From Nostoc sp. CreGUA01 (GTDB lineage Bacteria; Cyanobacteriota; Cyanobacteriia; Cyanobacteriales; Nostocaceae): a stretch of DNA of 14,450 nucleotides. The translations under genes were made by a program, and so were the position numbers. Location: the NCBI GenBank assembly GCA_034531095.2, contig JAVRBV020000007.1, positions 1-14,450 on the forward strand, given 5' to 3'. The notes below the pieces were generated by a model that saw only the letters and a list, made by a program, of their open reading frames with translations, was not told the origin of the DNA and ran no database searches. The stretch's first letter is position 1; each line of letters opens with the position of its first letter. Below, in pieces: positions 1 to 13,424 of the stretch.

Positions 1-33
1 GGAGTTAGGAGTTAGGAGTTAGGAGTTAGGAGT
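1..33. repeat. Heptamer tandem repeat GGAGTTA, 4 full copies plus a partial one (STRR-like)
   Basis: Direct reading: ggagtta at 1-7, 8-14, 15-21 and 22-28, then ggagt at 29-33. The array is cut by the window edge. Confidence 0.9.
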
Positions 34-199: not shown

Positions 200-219
200 C
201 CCCACTCCCCACTCCCCAT

Positions 220-867
220 ATGCCACTTATTCTCGAAGCCAGTAGCCTATCTCTCAACGATGTTCATCGCTTTCTCAAAGTAGAAGAACTTTCAACTGGT
301 TCATTCACTGACTTTTTAAATTTAGAACCGTTGACAGAGTTTGAACAACAGGATTTATTGCGAATTAGAAACGACTATCATCGTTATCTCAAGTATGGTA
401 AAATTTCTGAAGGTTTAGTTAAATTTTTGACTATTGCGCCATTAATGCGGTTAGCAGGATTTTACGATGTGCCGATTCGGTTGACAATGGAAGATAGCGT
501 TGCGATCGCTGTGGAAGATGAAGACAAAAAAATCACCGGACGGATGGATATTTTAGCAATCAACAATCCTCAAAGTAATATTGCACCGCCATTTTGGATT
601 TTAGTAATTGAAACAAAAAATAGTGCGATCGAAGTTGGTGAGGGTTTACCTCAATTACTTACTCATACTTTTAAAAGTTTACAAGAACAACCATCTGTTT
701 GGGGCTTGGCAACTAACGGACTGCGTTATCAATTTGTTTATTTAAAACGCGAACAACAGCCGACTTATCAATTAATGCCATTATTAAGTCTTAATGAATC
801 TGCCGGGGCGATTGAGTTATTACAAGTTCTTAAAAACATCTGCCAGTTAGTAAATTTTCAGAAATAA
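220..867 (+). CDS. PD-(D/E)xK nuclease-fold protein, type I restriction enzyme HsdR N-terminal-domain-like (215 aa)
   Basis: This is ORF 34-867 trimmed to ATG 220, because codons 34-219 only read through the 9-nt repeat. The core GRMDILAI...(x17)...FWILVIETKNS fits the D...E-x-K nuclease signature. This family is abundant in cyanobacteria. Confidence 0.7.
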   Translation: MPLILEASSLSLNDVHRFLKVEELSTGSFTDFLNLEPLTEFEQQDLLRIRNDYHRYLKYGKISEGLVKFLTIAPLMRLAGFYDVPIRLTMEDSVAIAVEDEDKKITGRMDILAINNPQSNIAPPFWILVIETKNSAIEVGEGLPQLLTHTFKSLQEQPSVWGLATNGLRYQFVYLKREQQPTYQLMPLLSLNESAGAIELLQVLKNICQLVNFQK

Positions 868-875
868 TTGAAGAA

Positions 876-908
876 GAATTCAGAATCCAGAATTCAGAAT
901 TCAGAATT
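876..908. repeat. Heptamer tandem repeat GAATTCA/GAATCCA, about 4.7 copies
   Basis: gaattca 876-882, gaatcca 883-889, gaattca 890-896, gaattca 897-903, gaatt 904-908. The array is intergenic. Confidence 0.9.
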
Positions 909-978
909 AATTAGTTTGGAGTCGTAACCACCACTTTTTTAACAAAGTGATTTTTGTATCATTGCGGGGCGATCGCTG

Positions 979-1707
979 ATGTCTGAACCTGCTACCTTAG
1001 AAGTCATCTCTGATGATACTTTAGGAGATCGAGTTATTTTTCCTCCTGGCGATATACTGAGTGACGAACCACCCTTGGAAAGTGACCTCCACCGAGACCA
1101 AATCGATTTGCTGATTCGCCTACTGAAATCGTGGTGGCGAGAAAAGCCAGATTTTTATGCTTCTGGCAACTTGACAATTTACTACAGTCCCAATCAGAAA
1201 AAATCAGAATACTTCCGCGGCCCAGACTTTTTTGTAGTTTTGGGAACCGAGAAAAAAGACCGTACAAGTTGGGTAGTTTGGCATGAAGACGGCAAATATC
1301 CAAATGTAATTGTCGAGATTTTGTCCAATTCAACCGCAGCAGTTGACAAAGGCTTCAAAAAACAACTTTACGAAGATACTTACCGTACACCCGATTATTT
1401 CTGGTTTCATCCTGTAACACTAGAGTTTCAGGGATTTCATTTAGTAGATGGAAAGTATCAAGAAATTCAACCCACCACTGATGGACGTTTATGGAGTCAA
1501 CAGTTAGAACTTTACTTGGGAGTTTATGAAGGTAAATTAAGATTCTTTACTACCGAAAATCAATTGATACCATCATCTGAAGAACTGGCCCAACAAGAAA
1601 GTTTACGTGCCCAACAAGCAGAAGAACGTGCCCAACAGGCAGAACAAGAAATTGCCAGACTGCGCGAACTTTTGCGTACACAGGGCATTAACCCTGAGAA
1701 TATTTGA
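979..1707 (+). CDS. Uma2-family (DUF820) putative restriction-endonuclease-like protein with a C-terminal coiled coil
   Basis: 242-aa ORF with an ATG start. It has the Uma2-like pattern PDFFVVLG ... PNVIVEILSNSTAAVDKGFKKQLYEDTYRTPDYFWFHP (a D / E / K triad followed by a Y..YW..P block). The Q/A/E-rich tail AQQAEERAQQAEQEIARLRELL is typical of cyanobacterial members. Confidence 0.8.
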   Translation: MSEPATLEVISDDTLGDRVIFPPGDILSDEPPLESDLHRDQIDLLIRLLKSWWREKPDFYASGNLTIYYSPNQKKSEYFRGPDFFVVLGTEKKDRTSWVVWHEDGKYPNVIVEILSNSTAAVDKGFKKQLYEDTYRTPDYFWFHPVTLEFQGFHLVDGKYQEIQPTTDGRLWSQQLELYLGVYEGKLRFFTTENQLIPSSEELAQQESLRAQQAEERAQQAEQEIARLRELLRTQGINPENI

Positions 1708-1903
1708 CGAGATGAGCAAATTCCATAGACACTTTACAGTTAAAATTGAAAAAGAATACAGAATTGAGAATCAATTTATTCATCCCCCAGTCACACAGAA
1801 TTAAATTCTGTTAGCGGATAGCTAAGGTTTAGCCCATTCTGGCGACTGAGTGCTGAATTGTTTCTTGTTAAAAAATTGTTAATTACTGAAAGTAGGGACT
1901 CGT

Positions 1904-2596
1904 TTGCAAGCAAAAGAGATTAAGGATCGATTAAAATCCCTCATCGAGCAAGCTGACTCGATAGATCCTAATTTAGCGAGAAGATTGAATGAAATCAACC
2001 GTTGGGTAAAGAATATCAAACCGGGTTCCCTGACGGCTAAACCTTTTGTCCTTGCTTTTCTTTTAGAAGTAATTACCGATTCGACAATTTGGCTGATCAT
2101 AAAATCCTCACCTTCCCAAGAAGCACAAAAAGCAAAATTCGAGCAAATGACGCCCATTGAAAGATATTGGTATGGTTACCTTTTTCCCAAATGGATTAAT
2201 GCAAATGATTCCAAGTTTTATATTTGGAAACAAAAATTGATGGCAGGTGAGTTCGATCGCGGTGATGATGATATTATTAGAAATATAGCCCAAGATGTTG
2301 TTCAGCGAGAAGGTAGTTTTTGGCAGCGTTATATTGCCGATCTATCAATGGCAACAGATTTAATTGTCAGTAATCGTCACAATCAACCACTTTGCATTCA
2401 AGTTACCAGTGTCAGTGAAGAACTCAATCAACAAAAGTACCAAGCTTGGCAAAATACACTGCGATCTTGGGAGATAGAGAGAGGATTGTTCCTCAGTTAC
2501 AATCCCAAGGATGCTAATTTTGTTAACCAGTTAGTTAACGTGGCGCTGTATAACAGTGATTATCTTTCTGGTGGGAAATATTTAAAATTTTCCTGA
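1904..2596 (+). CDS. Hypothetical protein (230 aa), no recognised family
   Basis: Long ORF with non-repetitive composition. The only start candidate after the in-frame stop at 1880 is TTG 1904 (apart from a rare CTG at 1886), and a purine-rich stretch (agtaggga) lies upstream. A weak D-x13-Q-x-T pattern (DLIVSNRHNQPLCIQVTS) recalls a degenerate nuclease core but is not convincing. Confidence 0.55.
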   Translation: MQAKEIKDRLKSLIEQADSIDPNLARRLNEINRWVKNIKPGSLTAKPFVLAFLLEVITDSTIWLIIKSSPSQEAQKAKFEQMTPIERYWYGYLFPKWINANDSKFYIWKQKLMAGEFDRGDDDIIRNIAQDVVQREGSFWQRYIADLSMATDLIVSNRHNQPLCIQVTSVSEELNQQKYQAWQNTLRSWEIERGLFLSYNPKDANFVNQLVNVALYNSDYLSGGKYLKFS

Positions 2597-2665
2597 TCGT
2601 TTGCGGATTTTGATGTACAAGATTTGTATTCTAGCCTACATACTTACCTGCTCATTACAGCTTTT

Positions 2666-3106
2666 ATGGCTCACAAAAGAGAAACTCACACCTGCAACAA
2701 TATAAATAATTTTGCCGAAGCTTTAGCAACAGCTAGACAAATGCAGCAGAACTGGTTAACTTATGGGGTGGATTTTATCAACTTTTATGTTGAAGATGTA
2801 GATGGAGACTGGTTAGAAACCTGGGGACATGACGAAATCTTAGGTAATTCTCGATTAGATGCGATTAAAGAATTTTTGGTAAGTGATGATAATGTAGCTG
2901 TAAAAATTAGGCAGTATTTGGGAGAGCGATCGCTCTTTGATTTTGCAGTAAGTTTAGAAGCATATTGGAGAAGTCCTGAGATAGATGACAGGTTAGCTGC
3001 TGTGACAAATCTATTAGCTGGTGGTGAAGATATTCTTCATAAAGATGACATCAGCTTAAGAGATTTAGCAAATAGTCTCTTGGTAAAGTTAGCAGACATT
3101 TTGTAA
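2666..3106 (+). CDS. Hypothetical acidic protein (146 aa from ATG 2666; 160 aa if TTG 2624 is used)
   Basis: ORF 2624-3106 lies on the same strand, 27-69 nt after the previous gene. It is D/E-rich with no recognised motif. A terminator-like hairpin follows it. Confidence 0.55.
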   Translation: MAHKRETHTCNNINNFAEALATARQMQQNWLTYGVDFINFYVEDVDGDWLETWGHDEILGNSRLDAIKEFLVSDDNVAVKIRQYLGERSLFDFAVSLEAYWRSPEIDDRLAAVTNLLAGGEDILHKDDISLRDLANSLLVKLADIL

Positions 3107-3127
3107 AATTTTGCATCACAGCAACAA

Positions 3128-3180: not shown

Positions 3181-3223
3181 AGATTTTTTGTCAAAAAACC
3201 TTAATCTAACCGGATTGATATCT

Positions 3224-3295
3224 CCCTCATCCCCCTCATCTCCCTCATCTCCCTCATCTCCCTCATCCCCCTCATCTCCCTCATCTCCCTCATCC
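3224..3295 (+). repeat. 9-nt tandem array CCCTCATC[C/T], 8 units
   Basis: Units fall at 3224, 3233, 3242, 3251, 3260, 3269, 3278 and 3287. The unit and orientation are the same as in the array at 101-199. It explains the spurious minus ORF 3201-3398. Confidence 0.95.
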
Positions 3296-3367
3296 CCAAT
3301 TTTATGGAATCCAAACAGCTGCTATTGTATCCATCAAGGAATATGTTGCTAAATAAGGTAGGATATT

Positions 3368-3784
3368 TTGGAACCAATAACAGCTGGTGCGATCGCAACC
3401 CTCGCTTTTACCAAAGCATTTGAAAAAACCATCGAGAAATTCACTGAAGCAGCCCTGGTAAAAATGGACGAGCTGCGAAAAAAGATTTGGGATAAATTAC
3501 GGGGAAATCTAAAAGCAGAAACAGCCCTTGTTGCTGCTGAAAATGGCTCAAAACCAGATGTAGAAAGGGTTGCTGCTTACTTGCAGGTAATTTTACATGA
3601 AGAACCGGAGTTTGCCAAAGAAGTAGAAACACTGGCTCGTGAAATTCAGGCTGGTAAGATAGTAGACAACAGCAACATGACCCAAATCAACCAAGACAAC
3701 GCCAAAGGATGGCAAACTAAAGTTGAGGGTGGAACAGTTTATCAAGGCGAGATTAACATTCATCATGCACCCCCCAATTCTTGA
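3368..3784 (+). CDS. Small helical effector-like protein (138 aa), Bell-domain-like, with a C-terminal Q/N/G-rich prion-like motif
   Basis: TTG start at 3368 with AGGA 4 nt upstream. The N-terminal hydrophobic helix is MEPITAGAIATLAFTKAFEKTIEKF. The body is charged and helix-prone up to about aa 100. The tail (aa 104-130) is MTQINQDNAKGWQTKVEGGTVYQGEIN, and this motif is repeated at the start of the next gene. The family assignment comes from architecture, not from alignment. Confidence 0.7.
   Translation: MEPITAGAIATLAFTKAFEKTIEKFTEAALVKMDELRKKIWDKLRGNLKAETALVAAENGSKPDVERVAAYLQVILHEEPEFAKEVETLAREIQAGKIVDNSNMTQINQDNAKGWQTKVEGGTVYQGEINIHHAPPNS
3677..3757 (+). other. Copy 1 of the shared 27-aa Q/N/G-rich motif (C-terminus of the effector-like protein)
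   Basis: MTQINQDNAKGWQTKVEGGTVYQGEIN. Nt 3727-3756 are identical to 3846-3875. Confidence 0.85.
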
Positions 3785-3795
3785 ATTCAGCCATC

Positions 3796-3876
3796 ATGAA
3801 CCAAAGCAACCAGGACAACTCTCAGGGCTGGCAAAATCAGGTTGGGGGTGGAACAGTTTATCAAGGCGAGATTAAT
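3796..3876 (+). other. Copy 2 of the shared 27-aa Q/N/G-rich motif (N-terminus of the NB-ARC/TPR protein)
   Basis: MNQSNQDNSQGWQNQVGGGTVYQGEIN, which is 20/27 identical to effector aa 104-130. Confidence 0.85.
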
Positions 3877-5643
3877 TTCTACAATTCCCCTACTGGGCAG
3901 TTACAGTCATCTCCTCCGAATAATATTCCTTACCGGGGTGTCGCCAACTTTGTCGGGCGGGATGAGAAACTTGTAGAACTACATCAAAAATTGCTGCAAA
4001 AAGACAGCGCGGCAATTTTGGCTGTGACTGGTATCGGGGGAATGGGTAAAACCGAACTGGCGACACAATACGCACAGCGCTACAAAGTCAATTATCCTGG
4101 TGGACTTTGCTGGTCAGATGCCAGAAAACCAGATTTAGCAGCAGAGATTGTGGAATTTGCTCAGTTTTACATGAAACTGGAAGTACCCAAAACCTTATTG
4201 ACTTCCCAAGAACAAGCAAAATGGTGCTGGCAGAATTGGCAACCACAAACAGAACTAGTCTTGGTAGTATTGGACAACGTTGACGATGTAACTAACTGGG
4301 AAAATTGTCGCCAAGTACTGCCAACAAATAACCGCTTCTATATATTAGTCACAACTCGGTTGCGAAATCTCGGTTCAACGGTTCAACAGATAACTTTGGA
4401 TGAACTCTCACCAGACGATGCTTTGAAATTGTTGACAGCTTTGTTGGGTGAGAATGATAGGCGGGTGCAACGGGAACCACAAATCGCAGCAAATTTGTGT
4501 CAACGGTTGGGATATCTGCCTTTAGGTTTGCAATTAGTCGGCGCGTATTTGGCAGAAGATCCAAATTTATCTTTGGCAGAGATTTTACAGCGATTACCAG
4601 CCCAGCAACAATCTCAATTGGCAGCCGTATTTGAGTTAAGCTGGCAACAACTCGATTCAATGACACAGCGTGTCGGTGAATTGTTGAGTTTATTTGCCCC
4701 AGATATCATTCCTTGGCAAATAGTTGAATCTGTCAGTCAGCAGTTAAATTGGGCAAAGGTAGATGTTGACGAAGCGAGAAAGCAACTTTATAAGCGCCAT
4801 TTAATTAAAAGCGTAGCAGAAGGAGAAAGTTGCTATAAGATTCATCCTTTAATTAGGGAGTTTTTGCAGGGTAAATTGGTAGGGTCAAAAACAGCCGATG
4901 ACCTCAAAAAAGCCTTTGCCGCAGCATTAGTAGAAATTGCTCGGAAAATACCTGAATCTCCTACCCTTGAGGATATCAAGTTAGTGCAACTGGCAATTCC
5001 CCATTTGACAGAGGTGGCACAAAATCTAATTGATGCTGTGGAGGATGAAAATTTATATTGGGTTTTCAATGGCTTGGGCAAATTCTATCAAGGACAAGGT
5101 TTGTATACCCTAGCAGCACCTTGGTATGAGCAAGGATTATCAACGGTGCAAACCCGTTTGGGAGAAGAAAATCTCAATTTCGCCACCAGCCTGAGTTGGC
5201 TGGCAAATCTCTACAATTCTCAAGGACGCTACGACCAAGCCGAACCCCTGCATCTCCAAGCTTTAGAATTGAGAAAACGCCTGCTGGGAGAAGCACATCC
5301 CCATGTTGCCACCAGCCTGAACAACCTGGCATATCTCTACGATTCTCAAGGACGCTACGACCAAGCCGAACCCCTGTTTCTCCAAGCTTTAGAACTTTAT
5401 AAACGCCTGCTGGGAGAAGCACATCCCCATGTTGCCACCAGCCTGAACAACCTGGCAAATCTCTACTATTCTCAAGGACGCTACGACCAAGCCGAACCCC
5501 TGTATCTCCAAGCTTTAAAAATTCGTCAGCAGGTGTTTGGGGTAAATCATCCCAATACGGTTACTATTCGGCAAAATCTAGAAAATCTCCAGGCTAAAAA
5601 GAATGCTAGCTGTAAAGTTAAGAATAATGCTAACAATTCCTGA
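3796..5643 (+). CDS. NLR-like STAND NTPase: N-terminal prion-like motif + NB-ARC ATPase + TPR repeats (615 aa)
   Basis: ATG 3796. The alternative start TTG 3781 overlaps the upstream stop as TTGA. Walker A is GIGGMGKT (4030-4053) and Walker B is LVLVVLDNVDD (4255-4287). ILVTTR (sensor/RNBS-B-like) and GYLPLGLQLVG (the GLPL motif of NB-ARC) are also present. The C-terminus carries four 42-aa TPR_10/12-type units (ATSLNNLAxLYxSQGRYDQAEPLxLQAL...). Confidence 0.9.
   Translation: MNQSNQDNSQGWQNQVGGGTVYQGEINFYNSPTGQLQSSPPNNIPYRGVANFVGRDEKLVELHQKLLQKDSAAILAVTGIGGMGKTELATQYAQRYKVNYPGGLCWSDARKPDLAAEIVEFAQFYMKLEVPKTLLTSQEQAKWCWQNWQPQTELVLVVLDNVDDVTNWENCRQVLPTNNRFYILVTTRLRNLGSTVQQITLDELSPDDALKLLTALLGENDRRVQREPQIAANLCQRLGYLPLGLQLVGAYLAEDPNLSLAEILQRLPAQQQSQLAAVFELSWQQLDSMTQRVGELLSLFAPDIIPWQIVESVSQQLNWAKVDVDEARKQLYKRHLIKSVAEGESCYKIHPLIREFLQGKLVGSKTADDLKKAFAAALVEIARKIPESPTLEDIKLVQLAIPHLTEVAQNLIDAVEDENLYWVFNGLGKFYQGQGLYTLAAPWYEQGLSTVQTRLGEENLNFATSLSWLANLYNSQGRYDQAEPLHLQALELRKRLLGEAHPHVATSLNNLAYLYDSQGRYDQAEPLFLQALELYKRLLGEAHPHVATSLNNLANLYYSQGRYDQAEPLYLQALKIRQQVFGVNHPNTVTIRQNLENLQAKKNASCKVKNNANNS
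5182..5559 (+). repeat. Three tandem 126-nt (42-codon) TPR-encoding repeats inside the NLR gene
   Basis: The units are 5182-5307, 5308-5433 and 5434-5559. Units 1 and 2 differ at 14/126 nt, confined to 7 codons. Units 2 and 3 differ at 3 nt over the first 84 nt and then diverge. Confidence 0.95.
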
Positions 5644-5807
5644 TGGGAAAAGTTTTTAGGTTTATTTGAGTGAAGCGATATAGCAAGGGACTGGGGACTG
5701 GGTGAAAAGTCTTTTTGTGTTTAGCCTCTTCCATCAGTCTTGCAAAAAACAACGAGTTTTCGACGTTTCAGCCAACGAAAAATTAAGGTTTCACCACAGA
5801 GTGATGA

Positions 5808-5942
5808 CAATACGGTTCGGATAAGCCCAAAGAATAAAAATGTGTAGGTTGGGTTGAGGAACGAAACCCAACATTTCGCGGGGTTTGTTGGGTTTCACTA
5901 CGTTCAACCCAACCTACAAATATTCTTAACCGAACCGTATTG
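5808..5942. mobile_element. 135-bp MITE-like palindromic element with 13-bp perfect TIRs and a 10-bp target-site duplication
   Basis: The TIRs are CAATACGGTTCGG (5808-5820) and CCGAACCGTATTG (5930-5942). The direct repeat AGAGTGATGA abuts both ends (5798-5807 and 5943-5952). An internal long imperfect palindrome includes TGTAGGTTGGGTTGA (5843-5857) and TCAACCCAACCTACA (5904-5918), a motif I recognise as a dispersed cyanobacterial repeat. Confidence 0.8.
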
Positions 5943-6289
5943 AGAGTGATGAAAGAGCGTTAGGGACTTCCAGTTAACAATTCAAAATTCAAAATGACGC
6001 TCGCGGACTCGCTAACGCTATGCAGCCCTTGTTTTGTTCGCGTAGCGTCTCGTTCGCTCTTAGCGTCTCGTAGAGAAGAGAGGACTAAAGTCCTCACTAC
6101 GAACTTAAAATAATATGCCAGTTGCGTAAGTCCTAAATTAGTTTTGGCTTTAATAATCTTTTAGATGTGCAATCTTTATCACTGTTAGCAATAACAGTTG
6201 CTCCTGAATCTGATAAATAATGCGGTATTTACCCAAACGAACCTTAGAGGATGTTTTAAAAGTCCTGAGTGATGTATCAAATACTTTTA

Positions 6290-6413
6290 GATCCCCCTAA
6301 ATCCCCCTTAAAAAGGGGGACTTTGATTCGAGTTCCTCCCTTTTTAAGGGGAGCCAGTGACGGGTACGCAGGGGGTTTCCCCCATGAGCAACTGGCGTGG
6401 ATTTAGGGGGATC
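6290..6413. mobile_element. 124-bp MITE-like element with 15-bp perfect terminal inverted repeats and no obvious TSD
   Basis: The TIRs are GATCCCCCTAAATCC (6290-6304) and GGATTTAGGGGGATC (6399-6413). Internal G5/C5 mini-hairpins are CCCCCTTAAAAAGGGGG (6303-6319) and GGGGGTTTCCCCC (6371-6383). This element type looks like a dispersed Nostoc-type repeat (from memory). Confidence 0.6.
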
Positions 6414-6469
6414 GAGATATGTGCAACTTCACATTAAATTGGTATTACTAGCTAAAAAATATTCGTTAG

Positions 6470-6637
6470 TTACTCCAGAACATGTTTTTCTTGCTCCAGA
6501 ACATGTTTTTCTTGCTCCGGAACATGTTTTTCTTGCTCCGGAACATGTTTTTCTTGCTCCGGAACATGTTTTTCTTACTCCGGAACATGTTTTTCTTACT
6601 CTGGAACATGTTTTTCTTACTCCGGAACATGTTTTTT
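6470..6637. repeat. Tandem array of 8 x 21 bp, unit TT[A/G]CTC[C/T][A/G]GAACATGTTTTTC, each with the 8-bp palindrome AACATGTT
   Basis: Units start at 6470, 6491, 6512, 6533, 6554, 6575, 6596 and 6617. Only 3 positions per unit vary (plus a terminal C-to-T in unit 8). The array is intergenic and all six frames stay open across it, which produces ORF 6397-6639 (PEHVFLA repeats). Confidence 0.95.
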
Positions 6638-7089
6638 GACTAAAATGTGTTTATTAATAAGTTAAAAACTATTTTTATTAAATCGAATTCTATTTGACTT
6701 ATCATTTAATGACTTTCTATAATTAAAAAAAATATTTTTTCGATAATAGCTTTAGTTTTATTTATATAAAAACGAAAATTTCCAGCAAAAATCTCCAAAG
6801 TATAAATAAAACTTAGATGGAATTGAGAACCAATTATGGTTAATTTATCAAAGGATGAGTTTTTATAAGCGATCGCCTTAAAACTTCTCAAAAACGAATA
6901 TTAAAACTTTTGGTGTATTGACTTACACGCCAAATACCCCAGTAGTAGGGTCATCGCACTAACTCAACCCTCTTCAGAATCCACCACAACCACGTTAAGC
7001 TGGATCAAAGTGGCAATTTACTGCGCTCTTGAATAAAAAAATCTCTGTTAAAGTCGAATTTTAACTTTTTTCTGCTTGAGAAACTTGGA

Positions 7090-7812
7090 ATGCTAGACCG
7101 AATTTTTGATTACCTCCACTTTCATTTCAGCGTTGAAGCCCCGATAGTCCTGCTGATACTAATATTTTTAGAGGCAGTGCTATCTGCTGACAATGCCATC
7201 GCCCTTGCTGCCATCGCCCAAGGACTAGAAGACAAAGAACTTGAGCGTAAAGCTTTAAATTTTGGTTTAGTCGTTGCCTACGTGTTGCGAATCAGCCTGA
7301 TTTTGACTGCCACTTGGGTGCAAAAATATTGGCAATTTGAATTATTGGGCGCTGCCTACTTGCTATGGTTGGTATTCCAACACTTTACCTCAGAAGAAGG
7401 CAAGGACGATCATCATCACGGGCCGCGTTTTAATTCGTTATTGCAAGCCATCCCCGTAATTGCATTTACAGATTTAGCATTTTCGTTGGATAGTGTGACA
7501 ACTGCGATCGCAGTTTCTCAAGAAAGGTGGCTAGTATTAACGGGTGCAACAATCGGTATTATCACGCTACGTTTCATGGCGGGATTGTTTATCCGTTGGT
7601 TGGATGAATATGAAAACCTAGAAGACGCAGGCTATATAACTGTAGCTTTTGTAGGACTGCGACTGTTTTTAAAGGTAGTTAACGATAATTTAGTCCCACC
7701 AGAATGGGTAATGATTACAGCCATCTTCCTAATTCTAGGCTGGGGATTTTCCAAACGCGTTGACACCGAACTACCCCAAGTAGAACCGGAAAAGACTGAA
7801 GTACCGAAGTAG
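7090..7812 (+). CDS. TerC-family integral membrane protein (240 aa)
   Basis: ATG 7090. The protein has multiple hydrophobic helices, the conserved TerC-type motif EAVLSADNAIALAAIA, a second half-repeat FTDLAFSLDSVTTAIAV, and a His-rich loop (DDHHHG). Confidence 0.85.
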   Translation: MLDRIFDYLHFHFSVEAPIVLLILIFLEAVLSADNAIALAAIAQGLEDKELERKALNFGLVVAYVLRISLILTATWVQKYWQFELLGAAYLLWLVFQHFTSEEGKDDHHHGPRFNSLLQAIPVIAFTDLAFSLDSVTTAIAVSQERWLVLTGATIGIITLRFMAGLFIRWLDEYENLEDAGYITVAFVGLRLFLKVVNDNLVPPEWVMITAIFLILGWGFSKRVDTELPQVEPEKTEVPK

Positions 7813-7814
7813 GA

Positions 7815-7910
7815 AGAGGGGATGAGGGGGATGAGGGAGATGAGGGGGATGAGGAAGATAAATAAATATTTCTCCCTCTACTCCCTCATCTCCCCCTACT
7901 CCCTCATCTC
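7815..7910. terminator. Inverted 9-nt-repeat arrays forming a long hairpin between convergent genes (probable bidirectional terminator)
   Basis: A GATGAGGGR-type array (7815-7856) is followed by the AT-rich loop gataaataaatattt and then a CTCCCTCATCTCC-type complementary array (7872-7910). The structure sits exactly between the TerC stop (7812) and the ndk stop (7913). Confidence 0.5.
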
Positions 7911-7912
7911 TC

Positions 7913-8362
7913 TTACTCGTGCAACCAAGCTGTTAAATGCGGTTGCCAGCTGACTAATTCTTCATCTTTAAACCACAGGGCAATTTCGCGTTGGGCGGTT
8001 TCTTGGGCATCGGAACCGTGGATTAGGTTGCGACCAATATTAATACCAAAATCGCCGCGAATTGTTCCCGGTTCGGCTGATAAGGGGTTTGTTGCACCAA
8101 TAATTTTTCTGGCAGATGCAACTACGCCATCTCCTTCCCATACCATTGCTACCACCGGCGCGGAAGTAATAAATTCGACTAAGCTACCAAAAAAGGGACG
8201 TTCTTTGTGAACATCATAATGTTGTTCGGCTAATTCCCGACTGACTTTCAGGAATTTTAAACCAACTAAGGTAAAACCTTTGGTTTCAAAGCGACGGATA
8301 ATTTCACCCACTAATTTGCGCTGTACACCGTCAGGTTTAATTGCTAAGAATGTGCGCTCCAT
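7913..8362 (-). CDS. ndk: Nucleoside diphosphate kinase (149 aa)
   Basis: The translation [36 protein letters not shown] ... NLIHGSD (active-site His context) is an unmistakable NDK sequence at the canonical length. Confidence 0.97.
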
Positions 8363-8403
8363 TGCTATCTCCCAAAACTTAATAAAATTTTTATCTAGTC
8401 AAT

Positions 8404-8476
8404 TGTCCTTTGTCCTTTGTCCTTTGTCCAAGGCTTTGCACTTCTGACTAATGACTAATGACTAATGACTAATGAC
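8404..8476. repeat. Two heptamer STRR-like arrays: TGTCCTT x about 3.7 (8404-8429) and GACTAAT x4 (8446-8473)
   Basis: Direct reading in the divergent ndk/speA intergenic region. Confidence 0.9.
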
Positions 8477-8592
8477 ACATGACTCTTGACCAATCAGAGT
8501 TTATCTCAGAAATTAACCTTGGGTGCATATCGGTTATGAAACGAATGCGCTAAATTGTTAATTCGTGGGTGAAACACAGAGGTTAGGAAGAA

Positions 8593-10611
8593 ATGGGTGT
8601 TGAGTCAACTGCTACATCTGACGAGGTGGTACTACTACCGTCCAATGGACACAAATCTGAAGTGAAAAAAAATCAACAAAAAAAGCTGTTACCATCTAGT
8701 ACTACCACAGGAGATTTACCTCGCTCCTGGAAAATTGAGGATAGCGAAACACTATATCGCATTGAAGGTTGGGGACAACCTTATTTTTCCATTAATGCTG
8801 CTGGTAACATTACCGTTGCGCCGAAGGGCGATCGCGGGGGGTCTCTAGATCTGTTTGAATTAGTTAACGCCCTGAAGCAGCGCAATTTGGGACTACCCAT
8901 GCTGATTCGCTTTTCCGATATTTTAGAAGACCGGATTGAGCGATTAAACGCTTGTTTTGCCAAGGCGATCGCCCGTTACAATTACCCTGGTGTCTACCGT
9001 GGTGTGTTTCCTGTCAAATGTAACCAAGAACGGCATTTGATTGAGGATTTAGTCAAATTCGGCAAGCCCCATCAATTTGGTTTAGAAGCCGGTTCCAAGC
9101 CAGAATTAATGATTGCTCTGGCTATCCTGGATACACCAGGAGCATTGTTAGTTTGCAATGGCTACAAAGACCAAGAATACATTGAAACGGCAATGTTAGC
9201 CCAAAGACTAGGCCAAACACCAATTATTGTCTTAGAACAAATTGAAGAAGTGGATTTGGTGATTGCAGCCAATCGTCAGTTAGGTATTAAGCCGATTTTG
9301 GGTGTTCGGGCGAAACTCAGTACCCAAGGTATGGGACGTTGGGGAACTTCCAGTGGCGATCGCGCTAAATTTGGTTTGACTATGCCTGAGGTCATCGAGG
9401 CAGTTGACAAGTTACGGGATGCTAATCTGCTGGATTCTTTACAGTTGATGCACTTCCATATCGGCTCACAAATTTCTGCCATCAATGTAATTAAAGATGC
9501 CATCCAGGAAGCCAGCCGCATTTACGTGGAATTGGCAATGCTGGGGGCAGACATGAAATACCTCGATGTCGGTGGCGGTTTGGGTGTAGATTACGACGGT
9601 TCCCAAACCAACTTCTATGCATCGAAAAATTACAACATGCAGAACTATGCCAACGATATTGTGGCAGAGTTAAAAGATACCTGTGCGGAACGGCAAATTC
9701 CCGTACCAACACTGATTAGTGAAAGTGGACGAGCGATCGCTTCTCATCAGTCGGTGCTGATTTTCGACGTTCTCAGTACCAGTGATGTCCCCCTCGATCC
9801 ACCAGAACCACCACAAGAGGGCGAATCCCCAATCATTAATTATCTCTGGGAAAGCTACCAATCCATCAACAAGGAAAATTACCAAGAACTTTACCACGAC
9901 GCGGCACAATTCAAAGAAGAAGCCATCAGCCGCTTTAACTTGGGAATTTTACGCCTCAGAGAACGAGCCAAAGCCGAACGGCTATACTGGGCTTGTTGCC
10001 AGAAAATTTTAAACATCACTAGACAGCAAGAATACGTACCCGACGAACTGGAAGACTTAGAGAAAATAATGGCTTCCATCTATTACGTCAACATGTCAGT
10101 GTTTCAATCAGCACCAGATTGTTGGGCGATCGACCAATTATTTCCCATCATGCCAATCCATCGCTTAGATGAAGAACCAACGCGGCGGGGGATTTTAGCA
10201 GACCTCACCTGCGATAGTGATGGTAAAATCGATCGCTTTATTGACCTGCGCGATGTCAAATCAGTATTAGAACTCCACCCCTACAAAACAGGAGAACCCT
10301 ATTACTTGGGTATGTTCCTCAATGGAGCTTACCAGGAAATCATGGGTAACTTGCACAACTTATTTGGCGACACCAACGCCGTTCACATTCAATTAACACC
10401 CAAAGGCTACCAAATTGAACACGTAGTCAAAGGCGACACCATGAGTGAAGTGGTGAGCTACGTTCAATATGACTCCGAAGACATGGTGGAAAACATCCGC
10501 CAGCGCTGCGAGAAAGCTTTAGAGGAAAAGCGCATTACTTTAGCAGAATCTCAGCGGCTCCTACAAACCTACGAGCAGAGTCTCAGAAGGTATACGTATT
10601 TAAATAGTTAG
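8593..10611 (+). CDS. speA: Biosynthetic arginine decarboxylase (672 aa)
   Basis: The length and sequence are typical of SpeA: WKIEDSETLYRIEGWGQPYFSINAAGNITV, FPVKCNQ (PLP-Lys context), HFHIGSQ, and DVGGGLGVDYDG (Gly-rich PLP-binding loop). Confidence 0.95.
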   Translation: MGVESTATSDEVVLLPSNGHKSEVKKNQQKKLLPSSTTTGDLPRSWKIEDSETLYRIEGWGQPYFSINAAGNITVAPKGDRGGSLDLFELVNALKQRNLGLPMLIRFSDILEDRIERLNACFAKAIARYNYPGVYRGVFPVKCNQERHLIEDLVKFGKPHQFGLEAGSKPELMIALAILDTPGALLVCNGYKDQEYIETAMLAQRLGQTPIIVLEQIEEVDLVIAANRQLGIKPILGVRAKLSTQGMGRWGTSSGDRAKFGLTMPEVIEAVDKLRDANLLDSLQLMHFHIGSQISAINVIKDAIQEASRIYVELAMLGADMKYLDVGGGLGVDYDGSQTNFYASKNYNMQNYANDIVAELKDTCAERQIPVPTLISESGRAIASHQSVLIFDVLSTSDVPLDPPEPPQEGESPIINYLWESYQSINKENYQELYHDAAQFKEEAISRFNLGILRLRERAKAERLYWACCQKILNITRQQEYVPDELEDLEKIMASIYYVNMSVFQSAPDCWAIDQLFPIMPIHRLDEEPTRRGILADLTCDSDGKIDRFIDLRDVKSVLELHPYKTGEPYYLGMFLNGAYQEIMGNLHNLFGDTNAVHIQLTPKGYQIEHVVKGDTMSEVVSYVQYDSEDMVENIRQRCEKALEEKRITLAESQRLLQTYEQSLRRYTYLNS

Positions 10612-10792
10612 GAATTGGGCATGGGGCATGGGGAGATGAGGGAGATGAGGGAGATGAGGGGGATGAGGGAGATGAGGGAGATGAGGGGCGGGGTGCAGGG
10701 GGCAGGGGAGAAAATCTTCCCCTCTGCTCCCTGCTCCCTGCTCCCCTGCCTTTTTCCCAATGCCCAATGCCCAATGCCCAATGCCCAATTCC
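10612..10792. repeat. Composite modular repeat: GGGCATGGGG + 6 x GGGRGATGA nonamers + GGCAGGGG/CCCTGCT palindrome + 4-5 x CCCAATG heptamers. It probably also serves as a bidirectional terminator.
   Basis: The nonamers run from 10631 to 10684. GGCAGGGGAG (10701-10710) pairs with CTCCCCTGCC (10741-10750). AATTGGGCATGGGG (10614-10627) is nearly complementary to the CCCAATG array (10756-10790). The element fills the whole gap between convergent stops at 10611 and 10793. Confidence 0.9.
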
Positions 10793-11962
10793 CTAATTCA
10801 CGCTTGTCCCCAGCAATTCTTCAATTGCTTGTCGCTCAACAGGGGTATGGGATGGTACTGTCTGACGAGCATCGGTAATCAACCAGTCTAAAGCTGCGGC
10901 TTGAACATCAATTGCAGCGCCGGTTTTATCAACGCAATAACGTCCAAACACTAGCTTATCCACTAAGCGGACTCCTGGACCGAGGCGCGACCATTCAAAA
11001 ATGACGCTGTTTTCTACTGTTGCGCCGCTACAAATCCAACAATTTGGGCCAATCATTGCCGGGCCGACGATTTTAGCTCCGTCTTCTATTCTTGTCATCC
11101 CACCAATGTAAACTGGGCCTGTGATATCCACTTTGTCCCAATTGACGGCAACATTTAAGCCAGTGTAGATTCCAGGGGCGACTTCATGACCGGGAATTTG
11201 CACATTTTTGATTTCACCCAGCAGTACACCGCGAATCGCCCGCCAATAGTCTGGTACTTTACCAATATCTACCCATTCAAAGTCCATAGGGATGGCATAA
11301 AATGGAGCTTTGATTTCCACTAGTTTGGGAAACAATTGGCTACCAATGTCATATTCGACGCCAGAGGGGATATAGTTAAATACCTCTGGTTCAAAGATAT
11401 AAATACCGGTGTTGATATTGGTGCTGAGGGCTTCTTCAGTTGAAGGTTTTTCTTGGAAAGCTTTAACCCGACCGTCTTCGTCGGTAACAACCACACCGTA
11501 GCTAGAAACTTCTTCTTCGGGGACAGATTTCGTAATAATAGTAGCGATCGACCCTTTAGCTCTATGCCATTTAACTGCGGCAGTTAAATCCAGGTCAATC
11601 AAAGCATCACCGCACAACACGACAAAAGTATCATCGAAAAACGGTGAAAAGTCTTGAATGCGGCGCATTCCTCCAGCTGAACCAATGGCTTCACCTACTA
11701 ATTTACCGTCGTCGTCTATTTTCCCTTCAAAAGAATAGGCAATTTGTACACCAAACCGCTGACCATCACGGAAATAGTTTTCTATTTCCTCAGCTAAATG
11801 ACTAACGTTGACAAGGATCTGGTCAAATCCATGTTGGCGTAAAAGTTCCAGTAAAAACTCCATCACTGGCTTTTGCAGGATGGGCATCATCGGTTTGGGC
11901 ATAGTGTACGTAATTGGACGCACGCGAGTACCCTTGCCAGCCGCGAGAATCATCGCTTTCAT
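10793..11962 (-). CDS. NDP-sugar pyrophosphorylase (mannose-1-phosphate guanylyltransferase-like nucleotidyltransferase with a C-terminal left-handed beta-helix), 389 aa
   Basis: The N-terminal signature is MKAMILAAGKGTRVRPITYTMPKPMMPI (the G-x-G-T-R nucleotide-binding loop). The C-terminal part has hexapeptide-repeat character (IGPNCWICSGATVENSVI). Confidence 0.9.
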   Translation of the reverse strand: MKAMILAAGKGTRVRPITYTMPKPMMPILQKPVMEFLLELLRQHGFDQILVNVSHLAEEIENYFRDGQRFGVQIAYSFEGKIDDDGKLVGEAIGSAGGMRRIQDFSPFFDDTFVVLCGDALIDLDLTAAVKWHRAKGSIATIITKSVPEEEVSSYGVVVTDEDGRVKAFQEKPSTEEALSTNINTGIYIFEPEVFNYIPSGVEYDIGSQLFPKLVEIKAPFYAIPMDFEWVDIGKVPDYWRAIRGVLLGEIKNVQIPGHEVAPGIYTGLNVAVNWDKVDITGPVYIGGMTRIEDGAKIVGPAMIGPNCWICSGATVENSVIFEWSRLGPGVRLVDKLVFGRYCVDKTGAAIDVQAAALDWLITDARQTVPSHTPVERQAIEELLGTSVN

Positions 11963-13023: not shown

Positions 13024-13044
13024 CAGTAGGTACTAAGTTAATCA

Positions 13045-13220
13045 AATGGGGCATGGGGAGATGAGGGGGATGAGGGGGATGAGGGGGATGAGGGGGATGA
13101 GGGGGATGAGGGGGATGAGGGGGATGGGGAGGCAGGGGGAGAAATAACCAATGCCCAATGCCCAATGCCCAATGCCCAATGCCCAATGCCCAATGCCCAA
13201 TACCCAATGCCATGCCCCAT
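13045..13220. repeat. Second copy of the composite modular repeat: GGGCATGGGG + 7 x GATGAGGGG nonamers + GGCAGGGGGAG + about 9 x CCAATGC heptamers
   Basis: The nonamers run 13060-13122 and the heptamers 13148-13210. The flanking inverted repeat is ATGGGGCATGG (13046-13056) with CCATGCCCCAT (13210-13220). Module order and orientation are the same as at 10612-10792. Confidence 0.9.
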
Positions 13221-13229
13221 ACCCAATAA

Positions 13230-13424
13230 TTAAAAACGCCACCAAGTTCTTTGAGCATAACTAATAATCCCGATCGCGATCGCCCCCAGTAATAGCAGCC
13301 AAATAATGCCACCCGGAATAAAAGTCAGAATCCCAATGCCTCTGAGTATCCAAACCGCTAGGCTGACACCAAGAAGGATACCGAAAATCTGAATTAATCT
13401 ACGATTTAAAGATGCTTGACTCAC
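13230..13424 (-). CDS. Small membrane protein with 2 predicted TM helices (64 aa)
   Basis: GTG start at 13424 with a GAGGA Shine-Dalgarno about 8 nt upstream on the minus strand. There are two hydrophobic segments ([15 protein letters not shown] and [17 protein letters not shown]). No family is recognised. Confidence 0.5.

What the first reader, a model, noticed from the sequence alone, without database searches (positions are those of the whole stretch)
3677..3876. A 27-aa Q/N/G-rich motif is duplicated across the gene boundary, with a 30-nt perfectly identical core in different reading frames
Effector aa 104-130 is MTQINQDNAKGWQTKVEGGTVYQGEIN. NLR aa 1-27 is MNQSNQDNSQGWQNQVGGGTVYQGEIN. They are 20/27 identical.

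At the DNA level 3727-3756 equals 3846-3875 exactly (gggtggaacagtttatcaaggcgagattaa). The offset is 119 nt, so the two copies are read in different absolute frames yet give the same peptide.

The composition is typical of beta-arch amyloid-forming signalling motifs: N/Q ladders, G at turn positions and alternating hydrophobics (V-Y-x-G-E-I). The silent-site identity in the core suggests gene conversion, or very strong co-evolutionary constraint, between the two copies.
Basis: seen in the sequence. Interest (0 to 1): 0.8.

Follow-up and report, generated by a model that had tools for sequence, protein, structure and literature searches.

The report
Matched amyloid motif in effector–receptor pair
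A small predicted cell-death protein and the neighbouring NLR-type receptor of a Nostoc-like cyanobacterium carry the same 27-residue motif, a published kind of bacterial amyloid signalling pair (class BASS9), so the finding is real but a new member of a known kind.

Summary
Bases 3727-3756 and 3846-3875 are identical, inside an 84-nt direct repeat (85% identity, offset 119). The two peptides match at 20 of 27 residues.

The upstream gene (3368-3784) encodes a Bell-domain effector. It is 70-74% identical to two Bell proteins listed in the BASS9 class by Dyrka et al. 2020. The downstream gene (3796-5643) encodes an NB-ARC/TPR receptor whose first residue starts the motif. A profile built only from published BASS9 instances hits exactly these two places in the window.

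The silent-site identity is not chance. Fifteen of 18 comparable codons are the same (7.9 expected). Two multi-base haplotypes occur at both copies across 20 Nostoc genomes, which argues for at least one DNA-level copying event.

Seen outside the window: 27 related loci have one motif copy only. There the receptor continues in frame after a conserved TGA-C stop and a co-varying hairpin, which suggests programmed readthrough. The window's receptor N-terminus aligns across that stop. I found no paper describing this. It is untested.

The parts
3356..3364 (+). Shine-Dalgarno-like AAGGTAGGA ahead of the effector's TTG start
   Evidence: Read from the sequence. The element and the TTG start are conserved in 18 of the 19 Nostoc orthologues; the remaining locus, L015, starts inside the gene.
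3368..3784 (+). Effector gene, 138 aa, TTG start, TGA stop: Bell domain plus C-terminal BASS9 motif
   Evidence: ORF and translation. 225 homologues were found; all those that carry a source name are cyanobacterial. It is 70-74% identical to the published Bell proteins AFZ02241.1 and BAZ41012.1.
3368..3664 (+). Bell helical domain (aa 1-99), N-terminal hydrophobic helix MEPITAGAIATLAF with Glu at position 2
   Evidence: AlphaFold2 model: helices at 6-13, 27-44, 48-58, 62-78 and 80-95, with pLDDT 73-86. These features match the description of Bell in Dyrka et al. 2020.
3677..3757 (+). Effector-side BASS9 motif (aa 104-130)
   Evidence: 53.4 bits, E = 3.6e-16, against a profile of published BASS9 instances. 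The region is of low confidence (pLDDT below 50) in the monomer model.
3727..3756 (+). First copy of the identical 30-mer
3785..3795 (+). 11-nt spacer ATTCAGCCATC between the genes; it resembles the codons for LQSS that follow the second copy (TTACAGTCATC, 3901-3911; 8 of 11 bases by eye)
   Evidence: The tails of the two 119/116-nt units are weakly similar (66 of 5000 shuffles reach the score).
3796..5643 (+). NLR-type receptor gene, 615 aa, ATG start
   Evidence: NB-ARC at aa 57-263 (E = 5e-19) and TPR_12/TPR_10 (E = 1e-51 and 5e-48). The ATG is conserved in 20 of 20 loci, the window and 19 orthologues.
3796..3876 (+). Receptor-side BASS9 motif (aa 1-27)
   Evidence: 17.3 bits, E = 6.9e-5; the next best hit in the six-frame window scores 5.6 bits.
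3846..3875 (+). Second copy of the identical 30-mer
3877..3960 (+). Linker FYNSPTGQLQSSPPNNIPYRGVANFVGR. Codon CAG 3898-3900 (Q35) sits where single-copy relatives have the in-frame TGA.
   Evidence: A BLASTP alignment of the window NLR against 'Bell tail-stop-NLR' of L040 runs across the stop position. DNA comparison.
4030..4053 (+). Walker A (P-loop) GIGGMGKT
   Evidence: Read from the sequence. G84 and K85 are invariant in the alignment of 17 partner NLRs.
5159..5517 (+). Tandem 126-nt (42-aa) TPR units, 2.8 copies at 90% identity: the presumed sensor part
   Evidence: Orthologous NLRs range from 549 to 1088 aa; the extra length aligns to further copies of this unit.

Best explanation
The region is a two-gene Bell/BASS9-NLR amyloid signalling pair of the kind described by Dyrka et al. 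2020.

**Shown here.** The two genes are collinear and 11 nt apart. The first encodes a helical Bell domain with a low-confidence Q/N/G-rich tail. The second encodes an NB-ARC/TPR STAND protein whose first 27 residues repeat that tail.

**Inferred from the family (BASS1, BASS3, BASS11 and fungal HET-S/NWD2).**
1. A ligand bound by the TPR part makes the NB-ARC module oligomerise.
2. Oligomerisation brings the N-terminal motifs together, and they adopt an amyloid fold.
3. That fold templates the identical motif on the free effector.
4. The Bell domain is released to attack the membrane and kill the cell.

**How the DNA identity arose.** The two motif copies are an old tandem duplication of about 119 nt. 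The ATG codon of effector Met104 became the receptor's start codon. The core GGT GGA ACA GTT TAT CAA GGC GA is kept in both copies by selection on the shared fold. At least one DNA-level transfer between the copies (ectopic gene conversion) has also occurred. In this genome alone the identity extends through GAG ATT AA.
For: **Membership**
- The NLR has NB-ARC + TPR.
- The effector is 70% and 74% identical over its full length to AFZ02241.1 and BAZ41012.1, both listed under bass_09/nlr_20 in Table S2.
- A profile of published BASS9 motifs hits only the effector C-terminus (53.4 bits) and the NLR N-terminus (17.3 bits) in the six-frame window.

**Position specificity**
- In 0.92 Mb of related loci there were 99 profile hits: 55 at C-termini of short ORFs, 36 in the N-terminal part of long P-loop ORFs, and 8 in short or truncated ORFs.
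- All 17 partner proteins scanned have NB-ARC (14) or NACHT (3).

**Gene layout**
- The same layout, with a conserved ATG, TTG and SD, is present in 19 Nostoc loci in conserved synteny.
- Length differences in the NLR-side motif region (L008, L015) keep the reading frame, so they are whole codons.
- The AF2 model shows a five-helix domain plus a low-confidence tail.

**DNA-level copying**
- 15 of 18 degenerate codons for identical residues are the same codon, against 7.9 expected from window codon usage (P = 5e-4). For the nine core codons P = 1.6e-4.
- The fraction of synonymous codon differences between copies is 0.19 in this clade and 0.45 in 15 distant BASS9 pairs.
- The haplotypes GTT TAT CAA and GCT TAT GTC (4 differences) each occur at both paralogous sites. 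L024 has ACT in both copies.
- Copies from the same genome are more alike than copies from different genomes at synonymous codons (permutation p = 0.003).
- The window NLR alone has GAG ATT AAT like its effector; the 19 others have GAT/GAA followed by other codons.
Against: - No experiment on BASS9 exists in the papers I could read; only BASS1, BASS3 and BASS11 were tested.
- Bell is not a Pfam family, and the effector has no significant Pfam, NCBIfam, PADLOC or PHROGs hit.
- Foldseek against the PDB found nothing significant, so the link to pore-forming HeLo/MLKL-like folds is not shown here.
- The concerted-evolution signal is weak overall: 10.9 against 11.65 nt differences of 75 (p = 0.03), and p = 0.08 at the amino-acid level.
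- Synonymous diversity among the orthologues is low everywhere (mean 0.12), so the conserved core is not exceptional.
- The 5' half of the motif keeps fixed paralogue-specific codons, so conversion is not pervasive.
- The window-specific E-I-N match could be two point mutations.
Confidence: 0.8

Rival explanations
1. The two copies are kept alike only by selection on the proteins (co-evolution of a matched pair). The 30-nt identity is then leftover ancestry plus codon bias, with no gene conversion.
For: Distant BASS9 pairs match at the protein level with no silent-site similarity; 123 of 276 codons for identical residues differ. Same-genome copies are only slightly more alike than copies from different genomes. 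Synonymous diversity among the orthologues is low throughout the gene.
Against: 15 of 18 codons are the same against 7.9 expected (P = 5e-4). The 4-base haplotypes GTT TAT CAA and GCT TAT GTC each occur at both paralogous sites; without transfer this needs the same 3-base Val-to-Gln codon change twice. L024 shares a private synonymous ACT in both copies.
Confidence: 0.2
2. The shared motif is an adaptor for a homotypic but non-amyloid interaction between receptor and effector, comparable to the 'effector-associated domains' named in the Pfam annotations of related NTPases. There would be no templated fold and no prion-like propagation.
For: BASS9 has not been tested experimentally in the papers read. 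Related NB-ARC proteins carry other short N-terminal adaptor domains such as PF19954/EAD10.
Against: The composition (12 and 16 Q/N/G residues of 27), the length, the low model confidence in the monomer and the genomic context are those of motifs shown to form amyloid and prions: BASS1 and BASS3 and BASS11 in E. coli.
Confidence: 0.12
3. The motif is a generic low-complexity linker, or the receptor copy is untranslated 5' leader because the NLR starts further downstream.
For: No strong SD precedes ATG 3796. The promoter and terminator scans are uninformative.
Against: The ATG is conserved in 20 of 20 loci, and the alternative TTG is closed by a TGA in the orthologues. Length differences among orthologues keep the frame. 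Published BASS9 NLR-side motifs also begin at residue 1. [quoted passage not shown]
Confidence: 0.03

Closest known systems
BASS9 Bell/NLR pairs of Dyrka et al. 2020, e.g. Calothrix sp. PCC 6303 AFZ02241.1/AFZ02242.1 and Calothrix sp. NIES-4101 BAZ41012.1/BAZ41011.1
   Same: Homologous 138-aa Bell effector (70-74% identity). The same motif MTQINQDNA[KR]GWQTKV[ED]GGT.Y. begins at residue 104. The adjacent collinear NB-ARC/TPR gene has the motif at residue 1 or 2.
   Different: The pair here is more alike: 16 of the 23 published positions match, by my count, whereas the published pairs score 9-13 on Table S2's longest-common-subsequence measure, which is not the same measure. Both sides share the derived V-Y-Q-G-E-I-N in place of A-Y-I. 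The spacer is 11 nt rather than 17-134. In this Nostoc clade the copies also share codons, which the Calothrix pairs do not.
HET-S/NWD2 of Podospora anserina (fungal amyloid NLR signalling)
   Same: An NLR N-terminal motif is proposed to template the same motif at the C-terminus of a pore-forming effector encoded by the neighbouring gene.
   Different: The motif family is unrelated (HRAM, two pseudo-repeats in the effector). The effector domain is HeLo rather than Bell, and the NLR is NACHT/WD rather than NB-ARC/TPR. The function there is allorecognition.
Bab/Agp (BASS11) abortive-infection system of E. coli ECOR25 (Ibarlosa et al. 2024 preprint)
   Same: A small Bell-related effector with a C-terminal amyloid motif, and an adjacent sensor with the same motif at its N-terminus. 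This is the only bacterial case with a demonstrated role (phage defence by cell death).
   Different: [quoted passage not shown] The motif class differs, and the pair lies in a prophage defence island. The window pair lies in a conserved chromosomal neighbourhood next to TerC, ndk and speA.
Leaky UGA readthrough in bacteria (phage Qbeta A1 coat extension, from my own knowledge; weak UGA-C context as at prfB, PMC5289835). Relevant only to the single-copy relatives.
   Same: A conserved UGA-C stop is followed in frame by conserved coding sequence. One message would yield a short abundant product and a long rare one.
   Different: Not demonstrated for these loci. The hairpin 8 nt downstream is a feature I know from eukaryotic viral readthrough signals, not from known bacterial cases. 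The window itself does not use this arrangement: the frames differ and the NLR has its own ATG.

Membership tests
Bell/BASS-NLR amyloid signalling pair, class BASS9 (Dyrka et al. 2020) | Effector carries a Bell domain: about 100 aa, helical, N-terminal hydrophobic helix with an acidic residue at position 2-3, homologous to published Bell proteins | tested here: met
   70% and 74% identity over 100% of the length to AFZ02241.1 and BAZ41012.1 (listed in Table S2). The protein starts MEPITAGAIATLAF. The model has five helices between residues 6 and 95.
Bell/BASS-NLR amyloid signalling pair, class BASS9 (Dyrka et al. 2020) | C-terminal motif of the effector matches the BASS9 (nlr_20) signature | tested here: met
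   53.4 bits, E = 3.6e-16, against an HMM built only from the published instances.
Bell/BASS-NLR amyloid signalling pair, class BASS9 (Dyrka et al. 2020) | Adjacent (within 5 kb), usually collinear gene encodes NB-ARC or NACHT plus TPR/WD repeats | tested here: met
   NB-ARC E = 5e-19 and TPR_12 E = 2e-51. Same strand, 11 nt downstream.
Bell/BASS-NLR amyloid signalling pair, class BASS9 (Dyrka et al. 2020) | N-terminus of that NLR carries the same motif | tested here: met
   17.3 bits, E = 6.9e-5, residues 1-22; next best hit 5.6 bits. 20 of 27 residues are identical to the effector copy.
Bell/BASS-NLR amyloid signalling pair, class BASS9 (Dyrka et al. 2020) | [quoted passage not shown] | tested here: met
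   99 hits in six-frame translations of 0.92 Mb: 55 at C-termini of short ORFs, 36 at the N-terminal part of P-loop ORFs, 8 in short or truncated ORFs. The sample was chosen through Bell homology, so it is biased.
Bell/BASS-NLR amyloid signalling pair, class BASS9 (Dyrka et al. 2020) | Motif forms amyloid fibrils or prions, and the NLR-side copy converts the effector-side copy | not testable with these tools
   No amyloid predictor or multimer modelling was available. In the papers read, only BASS1, BASS3 and BASS11 were tested.
Bell/BASS-NLR amyloid signalling pair, class BASS9 (Dyrka et al. 2020) | Bell domain has a HeLo/MLKL/Bab-like membrane-targeting fold and executes cell death | tested here: inconclusive
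   Foldseek of the model (pLDDT 69.5) against the PDB: best E = 3.5, no significant match. The profile search of PDB sequences returned only spurious helical-repeat hits.
Ectopic gene conversion between the two motif copies | Excess identity at silent sites between the copies | tested here: met
   15 of 18 codons the same against 7.9 expected, P = 5e-4. Codon-difference fraction 0.19 in the clade against 0.45 in distant pairs.
Ectopic gene conversion between the two motif copies | The same multi-base variants present at both paralogous sites; same-genome copies more alike than copies from different genomes | tested here: met
   GTT TAT CAA and GCT TAT GTC each occur at both sites; ACT occurs in both copies of L024. 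Permutation p = 0.003 for synonymous codons and 0.03 for all bases. The effect size is small.
Ectopic gene conversion between the two motif copies | Statistically delimited conversion tracts (GENECONV-type test on a population sample) | not tested
   Only 20 genomes, with a star-like and probably recombining locus tree.
Programmed stop-codon readthrough (considered for the single-copy relatives; not claimed for the window) | Conserved stop codon followed in the same frame by conserved coding sequence with no usable start codon | tested here: not met
   Not met in the window: the NLR is in frame +2 relative to the effector and has its own conserved ATG. Met in 27 related loci and in 16 metagenome matches.
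Programmed stop-codon readthrough (considered for the single-copy relatives; not claimed for the window) | Leaky stop context and a downstream RNA structure supported by covariation | tested here: inconclusive
   Relatives only. The stop is TGA in 25 of 27 and the next base is C in 26 of 27. A 5-bp hairpin lies 8 nt downstream: 90% of cells paired against at most 38.5% when slid, and 15 double-sided changes against 4.7 +/- 3.5 in shuffles (0 of 500); RNAalifold predicts 4 of the 5 pairs. The stem is short (consensus -3.7 kcal/mol) and lies in coding sequence. No Rfam match. In the window the 3' half of the hairpin is absent.

The most novel reading that the evidence does not exclude
The duplicated motif in the window may be one of two interchangeable solutions to the same problem: giving the receptor the same amyloid motif as its effector.

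In 27 related cyanobacterial loci there is one motif copy only. Some of these loci (Scytonema L040 and L044, partly L042) share flanking genes with the window. The Bell-motif ORF ends in a conserved TGA-C (rarely TAG-C), followed 8 nt later by a co-varying hairpin. The NB-ARC or other P-loop NTPase continues in the same frame, with no start codon before its conserved N-terminal residues. 16 metagenome contigs matched a pattern built from this linker; all have a stop just before it, and some come from the same organisms.

The reading this suggests is programmed UGA readthrough. It would yield an abundant Bell-motif effector and a rare Bell-motif-NLR sensor from one message, with sensor and effector motifs identical by construction.

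The window's NLR N-terminus aligns across that stop, with CAG 3898-3900 in its place and 24 nt of the hairpin missing. The two-gene form would then derive from, or convert into, the readthrough form through a tandem duplication of about 119 nt. I found no description of this in the searchable literature.
Probability: 0.4. Interest if true: 0.8.

Novelty: new member of a known kind. Interest (0 to 1): 0.4.

Why it matters
For the window itself the value is modest. It adds a clean, highly matched BASS9 pair from a Nostoc lineage in a conserved chromosomal neighbourhood, with 19 orthologous loci. Together these form a natural series for asking how a sensor and its effector keep a shared amyloid motif matched. 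The series shows that the match is maintained partly at the DNA level. It also shows that the effector C-terminus and receptor N-terminus, only 119 nt apart, can be exchanged or converted as one small cassette.

The larger potential value lies in the relatives. If the in-frame TGA-C plus hairpin arrangement is programmed readthrough, it would be a new recoding case in bacteria. It would also be a new way to couple an immune-type receptor to its death effector, and it would explain the Bell proteins whose neighbouring NLR has no matching motif.

Tried and rejected
- **Family libraries for the effector.** Pfam, NCBIfam, PADLOC and PHROGs gave no usable hit; Bell is not in these libraries.
- **Structure searches.** Foldseek of the AF2 model against the PDB and a profile search of PDB sequences gave nothing significant.
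- **Exact-protein look-up** of the window effector, with L or M as first residue: not on record, so the source genome was not identified.
- **TTG 3781 as the NLR start** (a 4-bp TTGA overlap): rejected, because the orthologues have an in-frame TGA two codons later.
- **Unusual synonymous conservation of the core among orthologues:** not supported. The core value is 0.043 against a mean of 0.12, but many codons are invariant anyway.
- **P0125 as a natural fusion.** It looked like a Bell-motif-W-NLR fusion with Trp at the stop position. Its DNA has TGA, and the 'W' comes from a gene call with a TGA-sense genetic code, so it is one more in-frame-stop case and not a sense variant.
- **An outer stem pairing the stop codon with AGUUAA:** 81% paired but no covariation, so not claimed.
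- **Single-sequence folding of the junctions:** z-scores from -1.2 to +0.4, uninformative for so short a hairpin.
- **Rfam** on the window and on a junction: nothing.
- **Selenocysteine at the TGA:** considered unlikely because 2 of 27 loci and 1 of 16 metagenome matches have TAG at the same place and the site lies in a variable linker. The Sec machinery of these genomes could not be checked.
- **Promoter and terminator scan** around the pair: not above chance.
Full report
**1. The observation**

The 30-mer GGGTGGAACAGTTTATCAAGGCGAGATTAA is present at 3727-3756 and 3846-3875 and nowhere else in the window, even with 3 mismatches. No shuffle of the window produced a match. It is the best-preserved part of an 84-nt direct repeat (3673-3756 and 3792-3875, 85% identity, spacing 119) that the repeat finder reports on its own.

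The offset of 119 (3n+2) simply reflects that the two genes lie in different frames.

**2. The genes**

*Effector.* The upstream ORF (3368-3784) starts with TTG behind AAGGTAGGA. Both are conserved in the orthologues. It encodes 138 aa with a hydrophobic N-terminal helix with Glu at position 2. An AlphaFold2 model has five helices between residues 6 and 95 (pLDDT 73-86) and a low-confidence tail from residue 100.

*Receptor.* The downstream ORF encodes NB-ARC (aa 57-263), a Walker A GIGGMGKT and TPR_10/TPR_12 repeats. The ORF listing begins it at TTG 3781. In 19 Nostoc orthologues that TTG is followed by an in-frame TGA, whereas ATG 3796 is invariant. The protein therefore starts with the motif. 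Among the orthologues, length differences in this region keep the reading frame.

*Neighbourhood.* Upstream are an Uma2-type gene and hypothetical genes. Downstream are TerC, ndk, arginine decarboxylase, a nucleotidyl transferase and ScpA. The Nostoc loci that extend far enough share this neighbourhood.

**3. What it is**

The effector has 225 homologues; all those that carry a source name are cyanobacterial. Most end in MTQ.N.DNA[KR]GWQTKVEGGTAYIGEI.

Table S2 of Dyrka et al. 2020 (bioRxiv 10.1101/2020.01.06.895854) lists exactly this motif as class BASS9, member motif nlr_20. Examples are Calothrix sp. PCC 6303 AFZ02241.1/AFZ02242.1 and Calothrix sp. NIES-4101 BAZ41012.1/BAZ41011.1. Two of my hits are those very proteins. 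They are 70% and 74% identical to the window effector over its whole length.

An HMM built only from the published BASS9 instances hits two places in the six-frame translation of the window. These are the effector C-terminus (53.4 bits) and the NLR N-terminus (17.3 bits, E = 7e-5). The next hit scores 5.6 bits.

This is therefore a member of a described family. That paper shows prion behaviour and fibrils for BASS1 and BASS3. A later preprint shows phage defence by a BASS11 pair in E. coli. I found no experiment on BASS9.

**4. Is the motif a generic linker?**

I fetched 79 loci encoding relatives of the effector from one genome per species; all are cyanobacteria. Across 0.92 Mb in six frames the BASS9 profile gave 99 hits:

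| Location of hit | Count |
|---|---|
| C-terminus of a short ORF | 55 |
| N-terminal part (residue 1 or about 51) of a long P-loop ORF | 36 |
| Short or truncated ORF | 8 |

All 17 partner proteins scanned carry NB-ARC (14) or NACHT (3). The sample is biased towards Bell loci, but within it the motif is position-specific.

**5. The silent-site identity**

*In the window.* Of the 18 identical residues with degenerate codons, 15 use the same codon. Independent draws from the window's codon usage give 7.9 (P = 5e-4). For the nine core codons P = 1.6e-4.

*Across pairs.*

| Set of pairs | Codons for identical residues that differ |
|---|---|
| 15 distant BASS9 pairs | 45% |
| 20 Nostoc genomes of this clade | 19% |

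The DNA similarity is thus a feature of this clade, not of the family.

*Within the clade.*
- The 5' half of the motif keeps fixed paralogue-specific codons (ACC/AAC, ATC/AGC, mostly GGA/GGC).
- The core GGT GGA ACA GTT TAT CAA GGC is shared by both copies in most genomes.
- Two haplotypes differing at four bases, GTT TAT CAA (V-Y-Q) and GCT TAT GTC (A-Y-V), each occur at both the effector site and the NLR site, in matched and mismatched combinations.
- L024 has a private ACT in both copies.

*Statistical tests.* Copies from the same genome are slightly but significantly more alike than copies from different genomes: p = 0.003 at synonymous codons, 0.03 for all bases and 0.08 for amino acids. 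The locus tree is star-like, and the haplotypes are scattered over it.

*Reading.* I read this as an old duplication plus at least one later transfer between the copies. The window is the only genome in which the identity runs on through GAG ATT AA. Its NLR alone has E-I-N like its effector. That could be a further short conversion tract or two point mutations. Synonymous conservation of the core among orthologues is not in itself exceptional.

**6. Mechanism**

*Shown here:* architecture, homology, motif pairing, position specificity, start codons and DNA-level relatedness of the copies.

*Inferred from the family:*
1. Ligand sensing by the TPR part.
2. NB-ARC oligomerisation.
3. Amyloid nucleation of the N-terminal motifs.
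4. Templating of the effector's tail.
5. Membrane attack by the Bell domain.

The Bell fold could not be tied to any solved structure.

**7. What the relatives show**

*The arrangement.* In 27 of the 79 loci the Bell-motif ORF ends in TGA (25) or TAG (2), and the next base is C in 26. The P-loop NTPase continues in the same frame immediately after the stop, as ...TGA CTA CAG TCG YCC GAA CGG GAA CGG RCA AAG..., which reads *LQS[SP]ERER[TA]KLNPP..IPYRGVANFVGR. There is no second motif copy. Only about 50 residues lie between the stop and the P-loop, against 76 or more in all but one two-copy locus.

*No usable start.* In the four loci checked, the first canonical in-frame start codon lies 26-45 codons downstream, inside or beyond conserved residues that are clearly translated in the window-type NLR.

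*Every locus with an NLR-side motif* has its own ATG, in any of the three frames. Every locus without one is in frame.

*The hairpin.* Eight bases after the stop lies a 5-bp hairpin, GTCCG-N8-CGGAC, with compensatory variants (GCCCG/CGGGC, GCCTG/CAGGC, GTCGG/CCGAT). 90% of cells are paired, against at most 38.5% when the partner is slid. There are 15 double-sided changes against 4.7 ± 3.5 in shuffles (0 of 500). RNAalifold predicts 4 of the 5 pairs.

*A wider scan.* A metagenome scan for the linker found 16 more matches, some from the same organisms. All have a stop (15 TGA, 1 TAG) just before the linker. The upstream ORFs that are complete are 139-178 aa long, and the upstream tails include several different Q/N/G-rich motifs. 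The downstream NTPase ORFs are long.

*Context.* UGA-C is the documented weak termination context in bacteria (PMC5289835).

*Conclusion for these loci.* A conserved stop, a conserved frame and a conserved structure are the usual signature of programmed readthrough. The long product would carry the very same motif as the short one. This is inference, because no protein data exist. Reinitiation at a non-canonical codon and selenocysteine insertion are the alternatives; the TAG variants speak against selenocysteine. One apparent sense-codon variant (P0125, 'W') was a gene call with a TGA-sense genetic code, since its DNA has TGA. A true fusion without the linker also exists (P0220). I found no paper describing the arrangement.

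**8. Link to the window**

- The Scytonema loci L040 and L044 of the in-frame type share flanking genes on both sides with the window; L042 shares the upstream flank.
- BLASTP aligns the window NLR residues 10-130 with 'Bell tail-stop-NLR' of L040 straight across the stop. FYNSPTGQ-LQSS-PPNNIPYRG lies over NYHNPPS*-LQSS-ERERTKLN-PPKFIPYRG.
- At the DNA level, CAG 3898-3900 occupies the place of the TGA. The 24 nt that hold the loop and the 3' arm of the hairpin are missing.
- The 11-nt spacer after the effector stop (ATTCAGCCATC) resembles the LQSS codons after the second copy. The two unit tails are weakly similar (66 of 5000 shuffles).

The simplest history is a tandem duplication of about 119 nt, running from the ATG of Met104 to just past the stop. 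That duplication gave the NLR its own start codon and motif and put it out of frame with the effector. The direction of change is not established.

**9. Verdict**

The finding is real and correctly interpreted, and it belongs to a published class. It is a new member of a known kind, with a modest addition: DNA-level homogenisation of the two copies. The in-frame stop and hairpin in relatives is the part that deserves follow-up.

Noticed in passing
L040:7430-7470 (Scytonema sp. HK-05); likewise L029, L031, L035, L036, L039, L042, L044, L048, L049, L051, L054, L055, L057, L059, L060, L062, L065-L069, L071, L073-L075, L078, L080 and L081-L096: The Bell-motif ORF ends in a conserved TGA-C (rarely TAG-C), and the P-loop NTPase continues in the same frame. 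There is no start codon and no second motif copy. A 5-bp hairpin with compensatory changes lies 8 nt after the stop. This looks like programmed readthrough, and I found no paper describing it.
   Followed up: partly
window 5159-5517; orthologous NLRs in L002, L004, L007, L009-L018, L024: The TPR part consists of near-identical 126-nt (42-aa) units. Complete orthologous NLRs range from 549 to 1088 aa (one, in L015, is cut to 236 aa). The extra length aligns to further copies of this unit, so the presumed sensor domain varies by repeat copy number.
   Followed up: partly
window 3305-5520 compared with 219-3116 and 6898-10600: The effector-NLR segment is more alike among Nostoc genomes (88-92% nt identity) than the flanking genes, including the housekeeping genes TerC, ndk and speA (79-91%, mostly 83-88%). 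That is unexpected for an immune-type locus and may mean recent exchange between lineages.
   Followed up: no
L040, L042, L044, L048, L054 compared with window 3590-3923: At loci that share at least one flank, the Bell domain and the NLR body with the window, the motif region belongs to other motif families (for example QNVYGGEAYQNNDSKAPIFQGVDNSPITINY, or NAPVIQGGSGHNITFN). The short stretch between the Bell domain and the NB-ARC therefore behaves as an exchangeable cassette.
   Followed up: partly
L021 and L023: Some genomes cluster several BASS9-bearing genes within 14 kb: two effector/NLR pairs in L023, and two long NLRs plus further motif-bearing ORFs in L021. One motif class can therefore link several receptors and effectors. 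The window holds only one pair.
   Followed up: partly
L080:488-1648 (protein P0125): A public gene call translates the in-frame TGA as Trp, evidently with a genetic code in which TGA is a sense codon. This produces an apparent Bell-motif-NLR fusion protein in the protein database. It is an annotation artefact that could mislead domain-architecture surveys.
   Followed up: yes
window 5700-6897, including 6473-6636: About 1.2 kb between the NLR and TerC has no counterpart in the orthologous loci. It holds no convincing ORF and carries a 21-nt tandem repeat (CTCCGGAACATGTTTTTCTTG, 7.8 copies, 97% matches).
   Followed up: no
window 1-33, 83-205, 875-908, 3220-3294, 7812-7918, 8403-8484, 10631-10793, 13048-13227: Many short tandem arrays of 7- and 9-nt units (for example CCCTCATCC, ATCTCCCTC, GGGGGATGA, CCAATGC) lie in intergenic stretches. 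From memory they resemble the short tandem repeats known from heterocyst-forming cyanobacteria. One array lies 74 nt upstream of the effector start. They create spurious repetitive ORFs (34-867, 12956-13312).
   Followed up: no
proteins P0129, P0135, P0141, P0204, P0228: Close NB-ARC relatives of the NLR carry a different N-terminal adaptor annotated as PF19954 (Effector-associated domain 10) in place of a BASS motif. Its sequence (QIGKNIVNIAEGKDIQIGDRIYQG) also looks like a short beta-arch-type motif.
   Followed up: no
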